Origin: Shigella phage vB_Shi_2KOFFS
Strand: one strand, 5' to 3'
Length of the DNA stretch: 53,672 bases
Sequence record: PV615261
The position numbers and the translations under genes were made by a program. Below are positions 16,207-51,639 of this stretch, piece by piece. Position 1 is the first letter of the stretch. The number at the start of each line of letters is the position of its first letter. A model generated the notes under the pieces. It searched no databases. It saw only the letters and a program-made list of their open reading frames with translations, and was not told where the DNA came from.

Positions 16207-17226
16207 GTGAATGAAGTAGTTTTGTTGAACGACAAGGCTACTTTGACGACCCGTCGTTTACGTGACTCTGGCGAAATGATTGCAGAATGCACCATCGCTC
16301 GTACTGGCATCATGCTGTATAAAGCAAAAGAACTTGGTGAAATCGCAAAACATCTGGACCCAGAATCTATTTGCCGTGTTCGTACCAAGCCGGAAGTATT
16401 ATTTGACGAAGCAACCATTGAAGGTTGTCGCTCAATTCCGGTTACTATCGGCCATCCGAAAAATGATGTTAACATCAAGAACAACAAAGAACTCCAGAAA
16501 GGGTTCATCGAAGGGCGTCCAGTTGCAGACGGTTCTTTCTTGGCTGCATCAATCGTTTTGAATGACGAGCAAGCTATTCGATTAGTTGATTCTGGTGTTG
16601 ACCAAATCTCCTTGGGCCATAATGCTGAACTGGCTGTATCAGAAGATGATGAAGCCGACTTCGATAAAGTTCGCATTATTCCTAATCATGCTGCAATTGT
16701 TGTTCGTGGTCGCGCTCAGACTACGCGCATTGGCGACTCTGGCGAAGAGATTGCCATTGTTGATAAGGCAACCTTTGACGTTGTTGAAGCAGAGCGTGAT
16801 GCAGCGCTTGACAAGATTAGTGTCCTTGAACAGAAACTTGCTGATGCAGAAACTGCACGACTATCCGATGAAGCTATTCAGGCTGAGGTAGACAAACGTG
16901 TAGTTGCTCGTACAGCATTGCTTGTTGATGTGGCCCGTCTTGGCGACGAGTTCTCCAACCTCGATTTCTCCGGCAAGACCGATGCAGAAATTAAGTTGGC
17001 TGTAGTTAATAAATTGCATGACAAGGATTTCAGCGATAAGAGCGAAGACTATATCTCCGCCCGTTTCGATGCAGCTCTTGAAGATTGCGATTCCATTACT
17101 TTGGGAGATGCCCTGAATCAGTCTATGCAATTCTCTGCTAAGAAAGATTCAGAAGCTCGTAAACCTAAAGTTTCTATTTCCGAAGAAGCTAACAAACGTC
17201 GTTTAGAACGCTTCAACTCTTTATAA
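16207..17226 (+). CDS. capsid scaffolding (or scaffold/protease) protein
   Basis: Acidic coiled-coil-like segment DVVEAERDAALDKISVLEQKLADAETARLSDEAIQAEV; position between portal and capsid genes; start uncertain (GTG 16207 or ATG 16276). Confidence 0.5.
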   Translation: MNEVVLLNDKATLTTRRLRDSGEMIAECTIARTGIMLYKAKELGEIAKHLDPESICRVRTKPEVLFDEATIEGCRSIPVTIGHPKNDVNIKNNKELQKGFIEGRPVADGSFLAASIVLNDEQAIRLVDSGVDQISLGHNAELAVSEDDEADFDKVRIIPNHAAIVVRGRAQTTRIGDSGEEIAIVDKATFDVVEAERDAALDKISVLEQKLADAETARLSDEAIQAEVDKRVVARTALLVDVARLGDEFSNLDFSGKTDAEIKLAVVNKLHDKDFSDKSEDYISARFDAALEDCDSITLGDALNQSMQFSAKKDSEARKPKVSISEEANKRRLERFNSL

Positions 17227-17235
17227 GGTAAGACA

Positions 17236-17709
17236 ATGCCAAAGCAAGATTGGTCTATTAATACTGGTGAAGCATATGCAGGTGAACAATATGGCCTGGC
17301 TACCACCAACTCCCAGCGCCTGACCTACGTTGCCGAAGAAGAAATGGCAAACTTTGGTCTGGCTGTTGTTCAAGGCACAGCTTCTAATCAGGTTAAACCT
17401 GGTATTGGGGAAGACGGCACTGTTCTGGGCATTACTATGCGCCAGATTAACATCGAATCTGCTACTCGTCCTGGCGACGGCACTGTTGCAATTAAAGTTG
17501 GCTGGCCTCTGGGTGTTATGCTGTCTGGCCCAATCATGGTCAAACTGAAAACTGCAATCACCGACAAGAACATTGGTGTATCCACTAAAGGCGAATTTGG
17601 TGGTGTTGGTGCTGGGTATACTAAAGCAACCAACCTGACTGCCCTGCGTTATCCGGCTTCCGCTGGCGATGTTGTCCCGGTCATGATTAACGTAGTCCCA
17701 AAGCCGTAA
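17236..17709 (+). CDS. capsid-associated decoration-like protein, 0-frame product (157 aa)
   Basis: Optimised codon usage; beta-rich Gly/Val composition; located between scaffold and major capsid gene. Confidence 0.65.
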   Translation: MPKQDWSINTGEAYAGEQYGLATTNSQRLTYVAEEEMANFGLAVVQGTASNQVKPGIGEDGTVLGITMRQINIESATRPGDGTVAIKVGWPLGVMLSGPIMVKLKTAITDKNIGVSTKGEFGGVGAGYTKATNLTALRYPASAGDVVPVMINVVPKP

Positions 17710-18002
17710 CGCCACCCCCAGCCCCTACAGTATCTGCTGTAGCTGGAGTTGTAACGGTTGATGCGTCTTCTACTGATGCCACTGTAACTGTAGACAAGCT
17801 GTTCAAGTTTGAGAACTCTACAGCAACAGATTATAACTTCGCTGTTACACCTCCTGTGACTGGTGTTTCTGTGGCGGCAAACGGCACTGTGACTGTCTTG
17901 AATGAGACGACCACAGAGACTTCTGCTACAATTAAGGCAACAAACAAAACAACCTCTAGCGTAACTGCGACCAAAGAAATTACCATTACGCCGAAGGCTT
18001 AA
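17236..18002 (+). CDS. -1 frameshift fusion product: decoration-like protein plus C-terminal Ig-like domain
   Basis: After slipping at 17697-17703 the -1 frame reads AVTPPPAPTVSAVAGVVTVDASSTDATVTVDKLFKFENSTATDYNFAVTPPVTGVSVAANGTVTVLNETTTETSATIKATNKTTSSVTATKEITITPKA, ending TAA 18000-18002. Confidence 0.55.
17697..17703 (+). promoter_or_regulatory. -1 programmed ribosomal frameshift slippery heptamer C CCA AAG
   Basis: X XXY YYZ heptamer in the 0 frame, 3 nt before the TAA stop of 17236..17709; the -1 frame is open for 99 codons downstream. Confidence 0.6.
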
Positions 18003-18024
18003 GTTGCAATGGCGCAATTAATGG

Positions 18025-19064
18025 TTGCGCCTCATCAAACAAAACGGATTAATTTACATGCCTAAGATGATTAAACTGGCGGACGGTTCTGAATTTGAAC
18101 TGAACGACGCTATCACCCGTATTCAGGATTCTGGCACTGTTGTCCTGAATGACGACGATGCAGTATTCTTTCAACGCCAGCTTGAGTTCATTGAAGCTCA
18201 AACTTATGACACCCTGTATCCAGAACTGGAAGCGCGTGCTGCTTTCGGTGTGGACACCACTGGTGGCGCTGGCGTAAACACTCTGACCTACCGTTCCTAC
18301 AACCATGTAGGTAAAGCTCAGGTAATTAACGCCCGTGCAACCGACCTGCCGAAGTCCAGCATTTCTGGTAAAGAATACAGCATCCCTGTTAAATCAGTTG
18401 GTACTGCATTCGACTACGATATTGACGAAGTAGCGTCTGCTGCTGTTACTGGCCTCCCGCTGGAAACTCGTAAAGCGAATGCTGCTATTCGTGGTTACGA
18501 GCAGTATGTTAACTCTGCTGCATGGTACGGCGATAAAGCTAACGGCTTTGTTGGCTTCTTCGAAAACCCAGACATTACCAAAGCAACTGTTGCTCAGGGT
18601 GCTGGTGGTTCTACCAAGTGGGCCGAGAAGACCCGACCGAAGTTATTGCCGACCTGACTGCTGCTGTGTCTGCAATGTATGCTTCTACTCTGAAAATTAT
18701 GCGCCCAGATGAAATCTGGATGCCTGTTGAGCATGAGCAGTACATCTTCAACACTGCACGTTCTGAACAGTCTGATAAGACGATTGGTCAGTTCTTCATT
18801 GACAACAACCAGTTCATCAACTCCCGCGATAAAATCAAGGGTCTGAACGCAATCAAAGGTCACGGCGATTCTGGCTCCGATTGCTTCGTTGTTGTTTGCC
18901 GCAATGCAATGGGCAACCGTACTTTCCGTCTGCGTGAGCCTCTGCCACTGACCTGGCAACCGGTACAGCTTCATGGTCTGGTTTATGAAGTTCCTGGCCG
19001 TGGTCGTTTCGCTGGCTTCCAAGCGATGTATCCGGCAGCAATCTCCATCAACTCCGGCATCTGA
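18025..19064 (+). CDS. major capsid protein; reading frame changes (-1) near 18628-18640 in this sequence
   Basis: Strongly optimised codons; frame 1 (18025..18657) and frame 3 (18618..19064) are each protein-like and together about 350 aa; no slippery heptamer at the junction. Confidence 0.65.
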
Positions 19065-51352: not shown

Positions 51353-51639
51353 ACTTACAAGACAAATCCAAAGAAGAGTTGATTGAGATTATCCAGAAGG
51401 AGCACGAACTCGCTGGCATCACAATCAACTATGAACTCCGGGCAATGCAAGCTGTTGCTTTGGGTCATGGTCTAATGGCTACACTCATTCATGCCAAGAA
51501 TGTGTTAGGCATTGACAACGAAAAATACCAAATTCTGGAGAAAGCTGCGCAAGAGCGGATTTCGCAGTGCTTGGTGACATTAGTTGATTTGGGAATCGAC
51601 GCAGAAACTGCGAACAAACGTATCCTACAAGGCCACTAA
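51313..51639 (+). CDS. hypothetical protein (about 96-108 aa)
   Basis: Start uncertain (TTG 51313 or TTG 51349 overlapping upstream stop). Confidence 0.4.
   Translation: MDNKPTSLRSSILNLQDKSKEELIEIIQKEHELAGITINYELRAMQAVALGHGLMATLIHAKNVLGIDNEKYQILEKAAQERISQCLVTLVDLGIDAETANKRILQGH

What the first reader, a model, noticed from the sequence alone, without database searches (positions are those of the whole stretch)
17236..18002. Canonical -1 slippery site (C CCA AAG) appends a 99-codon Ig-like domain to a capsid-associated protein
The 157-aa decoration-like gene ends GTC CCA AAG CCG TAA. The heptamer C_CCA_AAG at 17697-17703 is a textbook X XXY YYZ -1 frameshift site of the XXA AAG type that is efficient in bacteria. 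The -1 frame is open from 17703 to a TAA at 18000-18002 and encodes a Thr/Val/Ser-rich beta-strand-like sequence behind a PPPAP linker, typical of Ig-like (BIG2-type) domains added to phage structural proteins by frameshifting. A 6-bp hairpin (17725-17742) lies downstream. This would give two forms of a capsid surface protein, one displaying an Ig-like domain.
Basis: partly seen in the sequence, partly recalled or inferred. Interest (0 to 1): 0.7.

Follow-up and report, generated by a model that had tools for sequence, protein, structure and literature searches.

The report
Frameshift adds Ig domain to capsid cement
A phiEcoM-GJ1-like E. coli phage very probably uses a conserved -1 ribosomal slip at the end of its capsid cement gene to make a second, longer form carrying an Ig-like surface domain; this is a known phage trick, but it is not annotated as a frameshift in any of the 21 related public genome records I inspected.

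Summary
The 157-aa gene at 17236-17709 ends GTC CCA AAG CCG TAA. C_CCA_AAG lies at 17697-17703. The -1 frame is open from 17691 to a TAA at 18000-18002.

The gene is a capsid cement protein (Pfam PF22758; predicted fold matches Pam3 gp6). The 99-aa -1 product is a Pro-rich linker plus a confident Ig-like beta-sandwich (AF2 pLDDT 94).

The case for a programmed -1 frameshift is comparative:
- All 27 distinct relatives with a downstream -1 ORF of 92-191 codons keep a slip motif 0-1 codon before the stop: C_CCA_AAG in 22, C_CCA_AAA in 1, N_NNA_AAG in 4.
- Six relatives without the ORF lack the heptamer.
- The -1 frame is under purifying selection (dN/dS 0.07-0.28) from the first post-slip codon.
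- In the window there is no start codon before codon 51, in the middle of the fold.
- Ig modules are swapped or duplicated between phages behind the same site.

No convincing stimulatory RNA was found, so efficiency is unknown. No protein-level evidence was available.

Verdict: real, a new member of a known kind (Ig-like extensions added by frameshifting, as in T3 and A2). Public records leave the region blank or call it a separate ORF.

The parts
17236..17709 (+). Capsid cement (decoration) protein gene, 0 frame, 157 aa. It sits between the head maturation protease/scaffold gene and the major capsid protein gene.
   Evidence: Pfam PF22758 Phage_cement, E 2.8e-17, 63.6 bits against a cut-off of 27. 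PHROG 563, head and packaging. The AF2 model (pLDDT 81.8) matches Pam3 capsid 8hdt_G, T1, FCWL1, HFTV1, XM1 and TW1 capsid accessory proteins and the phi29 head-fibre base.
17697..17703 (+). Slippery heptamer C_CCA_AAG. tRNA-Pro would re-pair CCA to CCC and tRNA-Lys AAG to AAA.
   Evidence: Read directly from the sequence. Invariant in 22 distinct relatives although the preceding codon varies (GTC, CTC, GGC, ATC, GCC, TCC). Variants are C_CCA_AAA in L045 and N_NNA_AAG in Myduc, L028, L029 and L030. It was the most efficient heptamer in E. coli in Sharma et al. 2014, PMC4066793.
17707..17709 (+). 0-frame stop codon TAA, one codon after the heptamer.
   Evidence: In relatives the stop lies 0 or 1 codon after the motif.
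17688..17690 (+). TAA stop in the -1 frame, 7 nt upstream of the heptamer. It limits entry into the -1 ORF to 17691-17703.
   Evidence: The four -1 codons between this stop and the slip point (CGT AGT CCC AAA) include no start codon.
17703..18002 (+). -1 frame extension: 99 codons plus TAA. The predicted trans-frame product has 255 aa (156 + 99).
   Evidence: dN/dS against relatives is 0.11-0.28 in this frame and 0.94 or more in the other two. Variable sites by codon position are 39/39/93. The first possible start (GTG) is codon 51 and there is no ATG.
17709..17726 (+). Pro-rich linker TPPPAP.
   Evidence: Every extension type begins with a Pro-rich stretch (PPPAP, APVLP, APTVPP, KPVPPDPPP). 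The AF2 model has no secondary structure in residues 1-8.
17727..17999 (+). Ig-like beta-sandwich domain (extension residues about 9-99).
   Evidence: AF2 pLDDT 94.3, nine strands between residues 9 and 97. Foldseek PDB: T5 pb6 5ngj (E 2e-4, TMq 0.61), phi29 prohead 6qvk (TMq 0.60-0.63), invasin, Rib, PKD, cadherin. BFVD: 'Bacterial Ig-like domain protein' of phages SGF2 and NJ01 (TMq 0.75-0.77), BIG2-domain proteins, capsid and tail proteins. phrog_13745 'Ig domain containing protein', E 5e-8.
17725..17742 (+). Small hairpin (6-7 bp), 21 nt downstream of the heptamer. Its role is uncertain.
   Evidence: It is kept in most close relatives with a few compensatory changes. The consensus structure is weak (-7.25 kcal/mol, covariation term +0.3) and the spacing is non-canonical.
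17710..17721 (+). Slip-proximal segment CGCCAC..CCAG, unusually conserved at synonymous sites. Candidate 5' arm of a long-range pairing (a lead only).
   Evidence: Lowest synonymous diversity of the whole extension: 0.128 against a mean of 0.417, matched by 33 of 2000 column permutations. Block conservation is visible in the alignments.
17860..17876 (+). Segment CUGG..GUGGCG, the second most conserved at synonymous sites and complementary to 17710-17721. Candidate 3' arm (a lead only).
   Evidence: RNAduplex picks this partner in 13 of the 15 window-type sequences. 85.9% of cells are paired, but covariation is not significant: 68-86 of 500 shuffles reach the observed values. Phage Y2 lacks one of the two helices.

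Best explanation
This is a programmed -1 ribosomal frameshift site at the 3' end of the capsid cement gene of a Chaseviridae (Carltongylesvirus-like) phage.

Most ribosomes read GTC CCA AAG CCG TAA and release the 157-aa cement protein. A fraction slip back one base on C_CCA_AAG: P-site tRNA-Pro moves from CCA to CCC and A-site tRNA-Lys from AAG to AAA. They then read GCC GTA ACG... and make a 255-aa protein. That protein is the full cement fold (minus its last Pro), a TPPPAP linker and a roughly 90-residue Ig-like domain.

Because the cement fold is intact, the long form should co-assemble on the capsid with the short form and display the Ig-like domain outward on some positions.

Shown here: the site, the open frame, the folds, conservation, coding constraint and the absence of any independent start.

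Inferred: that slippage happens, its efficiency, incorporation into virions, and the domain's role. Weak adhesion to surface carbohydrates or mucus is the usual proposal for phage Ig-like domains (background knowledge, not tested here).
For: 1. Motif and frame are exactly as described.

2. Presence and absence go together. All 27 distinct cement-gene relatives with a downstream -1 ORF of 92-191 codons carry a slip motif 0-1 codon before the 0-frame stop: C_CCA_AAG in 22, C_CCA_AAA in 1, N_NNA_AAG in 4. The extension is always in the -1 frame, never +1. Six relatives whose cement gene is followed within 15-73 nt by the capsid gene (L026, L027, L031, Spp001, pAh6.2TG, VPs20) lack the heptamer and the ORF.

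3. The heptamer is invariant while the flanking codons and the cement protein diverge to 57% identity.

4. There is purifying selection in the -1 frame from the first post-slip codon. dN/dS is 0.07-0.14 for codons 1-50 and 0.11-0.28 overall, against 0.94 or more in the other two frames.

5. No independent entry exists. A -1 stop lies 7 nt before the heptamer, there is no ATG, and the first GTG is codon 51. AF2 places five of the nine strands upstream of that codon. Start codons chosen by annotators and gene callers differ from record to record.

6. The site behaves as a module slot. Unrelated Ig-like sequences (Ig_2/Ig_3-like in L028, weaker Ig_3 matches in Orgeat and Myduc) and tandem duplications (193 aa in flopper, SA91KD, JL1) all sit behind the same site and a Pro-rich linker.

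7. C_CC.A_AA.G was the most efficient -1 heptamer measured in E. coli, and A_AA.G the best tetramer (PMC4066793).

8. The cement fold matches the capsid-binding base of the phi29 head fibre gp8.5 (6qyy). From background knowledge, gp8.5 carries a C-terminal fibre that projects outward, which would be a precedent for a C-terminal projection on this fold.
Against: - There is no protein-level evidence.
- No canonical stimulator was found. I saw no SD-like element upstream. The conserved hairpin is 21 nt downstream and the consensus structure is weak.
- In Sharma et al. 2014, heptamers without a stimulator gave only 2-10 times a background of about 0.055%. Efficiency here could therefore be very low unless an unrecognised stimulator exists.
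- Four lineages have a P-site codon that cannot re-pair well (G_GCA_AAG and similar), so the tandem-slip model does not fit them exactly.
Confidence: 0.9

Rival explanations
1. The downstream ORF is a separate small gene ('Ig domain containing protein', as in the RefSeq records of ST32 and Y2), translated from an internal GTG or TTG start.
For: Public records annotate it this way. Gene callers produce proteins of 70-90 aa.
Against: - The annotated starts differ in nearly every record and are not conserved. The window has no start before codon 51, and there is no ATG in the extension of any relative examined except Myduc, where it is codon 78.
- Residues 1-50 are under purifying selection (dN/dS 0.07-0.14).
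- Those residues form five of the nine strands of the fold. A product starting at codon 51 would be half a beta-sandwich.
- The consensus scan finds no promoter-like site in the region.
Confidence: 0.05
2. The change of frame happens at the RNA level. RNA polymerase slips on CCCAAA and produces a fraction of mRNAs that are one base shorter, rather than the ribosome slipping.
For: It would give the same fusion protein and the same comparative signals.
Against: The homopolymer runs are only 3 nt long. From background knowledge, productive transcriptional slippage needs runs of about 7 or more A or T. What is conserved is an X_XXY_YYZ or A_AAG pattern in a fixed codon register, which matters to tRNAs and not to a polymerase.
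Confidence: 0.03
3. There is no expression at all. The ORF is a decaying remnant or a chance open frame, or the frame break is a sequencing error in a gene that was once fused.
For: The window carries at least one probable 1-nt error, in the capsid gene.
Against: The same frame arrangement is found in 27 independently sequenced lineages. There is strong purifying selection, a confident fold, and turnover and duplication of intact modules.
Confidence: 0.02

Closest known systems
Phage T3 capsid protein gene 10 (10A/10B), and the T7 and K1F counterparts
   Same: [quoted passage not shown] In T3 the extension is Ig-like (Atkins et al. 2016, PMC5009743; K1F gene 10b in PMC13370021).
   Different: There the major capsid protein itself is extended. 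Here it is an accessory cement protein (PF22758). The slip motif also differs. The extension here is a swappable module that is sometimes duplicated.
Ig-like domains added by frameshifting in Lactobacillus phage A2 and Listeria phages A118, A500 and PSA (the class described by Fraser et al. 2006)
   Same: This is the same general phenomenon: promiscuous Ig-like modules at the C-termini of phage structural proteins, some reached by -1 or +1 frameshifting (review text in PMC5009743).
   Different: Those cases concern major capsid or major tail proteins of siphoviruses of Gram-positive hosts. I found no description of a case on a cement or decoration protein, or in Chaseviridae.
Cement proteins Pam3 gp6 and E217 gp24 (Pfam PF22758), and related capsid accessory proteins of T1, XM1 and TW1
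   Same: The N-terminal 156 residues belong to this family by HMM and by fold, and the gene sits next to the capsid gene.
   Different: None of the cement homologues retrieved here exceeds 177 aa or has an in-frame Ig domain. The frameshift extension is a feature of the Cleopatravirinae-like lineages sampled.
T4 Hoc and T5 pb10 (decoration proteins with in-frame Ig-like domains)
   Same: Capsid-surface display of Ig-like domains on a non-essential decoration protein (background knowledge, not tested here).
   Different: Those proteins are encoded in one frame, so every copy carries the domains. Here only the frameshifted fraction would.
Tail assembly chaperone G/GT-type -1 frameshift
   Same: A conserved -1 slip near the end of a short structural-module gene gives a long and a short form. 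The window has its own example, T_TTT_TTC at 23106-23112.
   Different: The gene, the motif and the role of the extension (binding the tape measure during assembly) are all different.
E. coli dnaX and IS3/IS911 frameshift sites
   Same: They use X_XXA_AAG-type or A_AAG motifs that exploit tRNA-Lys(UUU) (PMC4066793).
   Different: Those sites have defined stimulators: an upstream SD-like element and a downstream hairpin or pseudoknot at short spacing. None was identified here.

Membership tests
Programmed -1 ribosomal frameshift site | Slippery heptamer X_XXY_YYZ (or Z_ZZN tetramer) in the 0-frame register | tested here: met
   C_CCA_AAG at 17697-17703, in register with the ORF that starts at 17236.
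Programmed -1 ribosomal frameshift site | A -1 ORF open across the site that cannot be reached by its own initiation | tested here: met
   The -1 frame is open from 17691 to 18002. A -1 stop lies at 17688-17690, there is no ATG, and the first GTG is codon 51.
Programmed -1 ribosomal frameshift site | Motif and frame arrangement conserved in diverged relatives and absent where the extension is absent | tested here: met
   27 of 27 lineages with the ORF have the motif. None of 6 without the ORF has the heptamer, though one (pAh6.2TG) has a bare A_AAG.
Programmed -1 ribosomal frameshift site | Coding constraint in the new frame starting at the slip point | tested here: met
   dN/dS is 0.07-0.14 for codons 1-50. 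Variable sites by codon position in codons 1-27 are 7/8/24.
Programmed -1 ribosomal frameshift site | Stimulatory element: a downstream structure at about 5-9 nt or an upstream SD-like sequence | tested here: inconclusive
   I saw no SD-like sequence in the 30 nt upstream. The hairpin is 21 nt away and the consensus structure is weak. A candidate long-range pairing lacks significant covariation.
Programmed -1 ribosomal frameshift site | Trans-frame protein observed, or frameshift efficiency measured | not testable with these tools
   This needs mass spectrometry, a western blot or a reporter assay. No published data were found.
Phage cement protein (Pfam PF22758, E217 gp24 / Pam3 gp6) | HMM score above the gathering threshold | tested here: met
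   63.6 bits against a cut-off of 27, covering residues 4-152.
Phage cement protein (Pfam PF22758, E217 gp24 / Pam3 gp6) | Fold like that of solved cement proteins | tested here: met
   Foldseek against Pam3 capsid 8hdt_G: E 2.2e-6, TMq 0.68. Also T1, FCWL1, XM1 and TW1. There is no sequence-level PDB match.
Phage cement protein (Pfam PF22758, E217 gp24 / Pam3 gp6) | Bound on the outside of the mature capsid | not testable with these tools
   RefSeq labels the homologue 'virion structural protein'. I did not see primary data.
Ig-like domain on a phage structural protein | Beta-sandwich fold resembling known Ig-like domains | tested here: met
   AF2 pLDDT 94.3. Matches to the Ig-like domains of T5 pb6 and the phi29 capsid protein, invasin, PKD and cadherin, and to phage Ig-like and BIG2 proteins.
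BIG2 (Pfam PF02368) specifically | Sequence match to the Big_2 HMM | tested here: not met
   There is no Big_2 hit at E of 1 or less. The only match is a sub-threshold Rpf1_C hit. The BIG2 resemblance rests on fold alone.

The most novel reading that the evidence does not exclude
The frameshift may be tuned by a long-range RNA pairing rather than a local hairpin. The two stretches of the extension with the least synonymous variation are CGCCAC..CCAG at 17710-17721, starting 7 nt after the heptamer, and CUGG..GUGGCG at 17860-17876. They are complementary and could close a domain of about 140 nt whose 5' arm sits at the ribosome's mRNA entrance during the slip. Distant stimulators of this kind are known from plant RNA viruses (background knowledge). 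I know of no established example in a phage.
Probability: 0.15. Interest if true: 0.6.

Novelty: new member of a known kind. Interest (0 to 1): 0.45.

Why it matters
1. Annotation. In the public genomes of this phage group that I inspected, which include E. coli, Yersinia, Erwinia amylovora, Pectobacterium and Pantoea phages, the region is left blank or called as a truncated 'hypothetical' or 'Ig domain' ORF. The proper product would be a 255-aa cement-Ig fusion made by ribosomal slippage.

2. Biology. It extends the 'Ig-like domain by frameshift' theme from major capsid and tail proteins to an accessory cement protein. It also gives a clean natural series: domain present, absent, swapped or duplicated behind one fixed recoding site. 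That series could be used to study how such modules move and what they do, for example in adhesion to host or mucosal glycans.

3. Engineering. A naturally sub-stoichiometric, outward-facing C-terminal display site on a cement protein would be a ready-made low-copy display position, analogous to T7 and K1F gene 10B.

4. Recoding. An efficient heptamer with no obvious stimulator, conserved across several genera, is a useful test case for what sets frameshift levels in bacteria.

Tried and rejected
- **Pfam on the extension.** Only a sub-threshold Rpf1_C hit and no Big_2. I relied on structure instead.
- **PDB sequence searches with the cement protein.** Both the single sequence and the 37-sequence profile gave nothing. 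A fold search was needed.
- **AF2 of the full 255-aa fusion.** The two parts were modelled separately.
- **The local hairpin 17725-17742 as stimulator.** It is real and partly conserved, but it is 21 nt from the heptamer. The RNAalifold consensus is only -7.25 kcal/mol with an unfavourable covariation term. I rejected it as a canonical stimulator.
- **The extended hairpin in the window's minimum-energy fold.** It scores -27 kcal/mol with z -2.5 but is not conserved in ST32, BSBP01 and others.
- **Upstream SD-like stimulator.** I saw none in the 30 nt upstream in any lineage (by inspection).
- **Terminator and promoter annotated inside this region in the SA91KD record.** The consensus scan finds neither in the window.
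- **Long-range pairing.** It is suggestive, but covariation is not significant and Y2 lacks one helix. I keep it as a lead only.
- **Search for an in-frame cement-Ig fusion among homologues.** None of the 86 homologues is longer than 177 aa.
- **Other candidate heptamer.** T_TTG_GGA at 51588 simply runs into the next gene.
- **Literature.** Ten full-text searches found no description of this frameshift and no virion proteome for the family. The phiEcoM-GJ1 genome paper could not be opened.
Full report
**What the window is**

The region belongs to a phiEcoM-GJ1-like myovirus (Chaseviridae, Cleopatravirinae, Carltongylesvirus). Bases 17100-18200 match 46 phage records at 80-98.5% identity, with Escherichia phage Ecp_YSF the closest. 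The local gene order is portal, head maturation protease/scaffold (DUF2213), the 157-aa gene, a gap of about 350 nt, then the major capsid protein (PF09950).

**Checking the observation**

- The ORF 17236-17709 ends GTC CCA AAG CCG TAA.
- C_CCA_AAG occupies 17697-17703 in the X_XXY_YYZ register.
- The -1 frame has a TAA at 17688-17690 and is then open to the TAA at 18000-18002.
- A slip on the heptamer continues with GCC GTA ACG... and gives 99 further residues (AVTPPPAPTVSAVAG...ITITPKA). The trans-frame product has 255 aa.
- The hairpin at 17725-17742 exists.

The heptamer alone is not rare, with 9 copies against 6.5 expected. However, of 134 ORFs of 80 aa or more, this is the only one that combines an in-frame XXXYYYZ near its end with a long -1 extension.

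**What the two parts are**

The 157-aa protein is a capsid cement protein.
- It matches Pfam PF22758 (E217 gp24 / Pam3 gp6) at 63.6 bits against a cut-off of 27, and PHROG 563.
- There is no sequence-level match in the PDB.
- An AF2 model built on 37 homologues (pLDDT 81.8) matches the cement chain of the Pam3 capsid (8hdt_G, E 2e-6, TMq 0.68). It also matches accessory capsid proteins of T1, FCWL1, HFTV1, XM1 and TW1, and the capsid-binding base of the phi29 head fibre gp8.5. From background knowledge, gp8.5 carries a C-terminal fibre that projects outward. That would be a structural precedent for a C-terminal projection growing out of this fold.

The 99-aa extension is an Ig-like domain behind a linker.
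- It has no Pfam match above threshold but hits phrog_13745 'Ig domain containing protein'.
- It folds with high confidence (pLDDT 94.3) into nine beta-strands spanning residues 9-97, behind an unstructured TPPPAP linker.
- Its best PDB matches are the Ig-like domain of T5 tail tube protein pb6 and that of the phi29 capsid protein, then invasin, Rib, PKD and cadherin domains.
- In the viral structure library it matches 'Bacterial Ig-like domain' proteins of phages SGF2 and NJ01 (TMq 0.75-0.77), capsid proteins of phages Paul and 7-11, and several BIG2-domain and major tail proteins.
- 'Ig-like' is therefore confirmed. 'BIG2-type' holds by fold only.

**Is it a programmed frameshift? Comparative evidence**

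I collected the locus from 21 annotated phage records, from IMG/VR and from assembled metagenomes.

| Group | Distinct lineages | Motif before the 0-frame stop | -1 ORF past the stop |
|---|---|---|---|
| Carltongylesvirus, phiA050, Faunus, PP101, 4HA13, Loessnervirus, four uncultivated | 22 | C_CCA_AAG | 92-98 codons, or 191 with two domains |
| L045 | 1 | C_CCA_AAA | 94 codons |
| Myduc, L028, L029, L030 | 4 | G_GCA_AAG, G_GTA_AAG, A_GTA_AAG, G_TTA_AAG | 94-110 codons |
| L026, L027, L031, Spp001, pAh6.2TG, VPs20 | 6 | no heptamer | none of this kind |

- In the first group the codon before the motif varies (GTC, CTC, GGC, ATC, GCC, TCC), the 0-frame tail varies (CCG, TCG, CAG or nothing before the stop), and the cement protein drops to 57% identity. 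The heptamer itself never changes.
- The invariant core across all 27 lineages is A_AAG or A_AAA, 0-1 codon before the stop. The extension is always in the -1 frame.
- In the six negative lineages the capsid gene follows within 15-73 nt. pAh6.2TG happens to end GAA AAG TAA, but it has only a 26-codon -1 tail.
- Presence of the motif and presence of the ORF therefore coincide.

**Coding constraint and lack of an independent start**

Against eight same-length relatives, dN/dS in the -1 frame is 0.11-0.28 overall and 0.07-0.14 for codons 1-50. The same DNA read in the other two frames gives 0.94 or more. Variable sites fall 39/39/93 by codon position, and 7/8/24 in the first 27 codons. Selection on the protein therefore starts at the slip point.

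The window has no ATG in the extension, and its first GTG is codon 51. Five of the nine strands lie upstream of that codon. The four -1 codons between the upstream stop and the slip point contain no start.

In the public records the region is either unannotated (GJ1, PP101, phiA050, Fifi451, Orgeat, and by tblastn also PO103-1, EcoM1, SKA49, Navette and Mauresque) or called from a different GTG or TTG in nearly every record. None of the 21 annotated records I inspected marks a frameshift.

**A module slot**

Sequence-unrelated Ig-like domains sit behind the same site and a Pro-rich linker:
- the window type;
- a PP101/L045 type;
- a Fifi451/L046 type;
- an I-set-like 'YVWKK' type in Orgeat, L037 and L042, with sub-threshold Ig_3/Ig_2 matches;
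- an L028/L029/L030/L044 type, with Ig_2 and Ig_3 Pfam hits on record for L028;
- a Myduc type.

Flopper, SA91KD and JL1 carry two tandem copies, giving 193 aa.

Domain similarity is incongruent with cement-protein similarity. EaPF9 is 62% identical in the cement protein but 80% in the domain. PYps16N is 92% against 73%. Within Loessnervirus three different domain types occur. This is the promiscuous behaviour described for phage Ig-like domains, some of which are known to be reached by frameshifting (review text in PMC5009743).

**Mechanism and what is missing**

C_CC.A_AA.G was the most efficient -1 heptamer measured in E. coli, reaching 54% with the IS3 pseudoknot. A_AA.G was the best tetramer. 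The effect is attributed to the shiftiness of tRNA-Lys(UUU) (PMC4066793). In the same study, heptamers without a stimulator were only 2-10 times above a background of about 0.055%. A stimulator, or acceptance of a very low level, is therefore implied.

I did not find a convincing stimulator:
- I saw no SD-like sequence upstream.
It begins 21 nt after the heptamer, and the consensus fold is weak.
- The larger fold seen in the window is not conserved.

One lead emerged. The two 6-codon stretches with the lowest synonymous diversity are the one right after the slip site (GCC GTA ACG CCA CC; 0.128 against a mean of 0.417; 33 of 2000 permutations as low) and ACT GGT GTT TCT GTG GCG, about 160 nt downstream (0.225). 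They are complementary (CGCCAC:GUGGCG and CCAG:CUGG). RNAduplex selects this partner in 13 of 15 sequences. However, both-sided changes are few, and shuffles reach the observed covariation 68-86 times in 500. Y2 also lacks one helix. I treat this as an untested idea.

**Rivals**

- *A separate gene.* This is contradicted by the missing or unconserved start and by the constraint on residues 1-50.
- *Transcriptional slippage.* This is unlikely with 3-nt runs and a conserved codon register.
- *A remnant or a sequencing error.* This is excluded by recurrence in 27 lineages, by purifying selection and by module turnover. The window does contain one probable 1-nt error elsewhere: a C missing at 18632-18634 in the capsid gene, unique among 45 relatives.
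- *Stop-codon readthrough.* This would hit a TAG 11 codons after the TAA (read from the sequence).

**Comparison and novelty**

In kind this is the known 'Ig-like C-terminal extension by programmed frameshift' (T3 10B, Lactobacillus phage A2, Listeria phages). What is new:
- the carrier, a PF22758 cement protein rather than a major capsid or tail protein;
- the family, Chaseviridae;
- the clear present / absent / swapped / duplicated series behind one fixed site.

Ten full-text searches found no prior description. The library is limited, and the original GJ1 and Y2 papers were not readable. I therefore rate it a new member of a known kind, well supported computationally (confidence 0.9) but lacking protein evidence. 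Interest is moderate.

Noticed in passing
window 18058-19064, break at 18632-18634: The major capsid protein gene is split into two frames (18058..18657 and 18618..19064). One base is missing in GAC-CCG where relatives have GACCCCG or GACTCCG. All 45 related records hold 312 bases where the window has 311. This is probably a sequencing or assembly error in an essential gene.
   Followed up: yes
window 22750-23384, heptamer at 23106-23112: The gene between the tail tube gene and the tape measure gene (152 aa) carries an in-frame T_TTT_TTC. A -1 stop lies immediately before it, and the -1 ORF runs 58 codons past the 0-frame stop to 23384, overlapping the tape measure start at 23377. This is the classic G/GT-type tail assembly chaperone frameshift, so the phage has two -1 recoding sites.
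   Followed up: partly
L004 (flopper), L010 (SA91KD), L011 (JL1); DE15 by tblastn: A 282-bp insertion relative to the window gives two tandem Ig-like domains (193-aa extension). The second copy follows a second PPAP linker.
   Followed up: partly
L018 Fifi451, L019 EaPF9, L020 Orgeat, L021 Y2 (all Loessnervirus): Closely related Erwinia phages carry three unrelated Ig-like modules behind the same heptamer. The EaPF9 and Y2 module is closer to the E. coli phage module (72-80%) than their cement proteins are (57-62%). This implies horizontal exchange of the module alone.
   Followed up: partly
window 17710-17721 and 17860-17876: These two patches have strongly reduced synonymous variation and are mutually complementary (CGCCAC/GUGGCG and CCAG/CUGG). 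They could form a long-range RNA element. Covariation is not significant.
   Followed up: partly
PP952070.1 (hit H20/H52): A record named 'Staphylococcus phage Pel53' (host given as Staphylococcus hyicus) is 89% identical in DNA to these E. coli and Yersinia Carltongylesvirus phages across the locus. The host label looks doubtful.
   Followed up: no
L010 (SA91KD) 1984-2026 and 2074-2102, equivalent to window 17719-17761 and 17809-17837: The GenBank record annotates a rho-independent terminator and a sigma-70 promoter inside what is here read as the -1 coding extension. The consensus scan of the window finds neither.
   Followed up: partly
L026 (P0057), L027 (P0061), L031 (P0093): Uncultivated relatives with cement proteins 57-67% identical have lost (or never had) the Ig ORF. 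Instead they end in short in-frame tails such as ...VVPGTTPPAAGGGE, and the capsid gene follows within 21-73 nt.
   Followed up: partly
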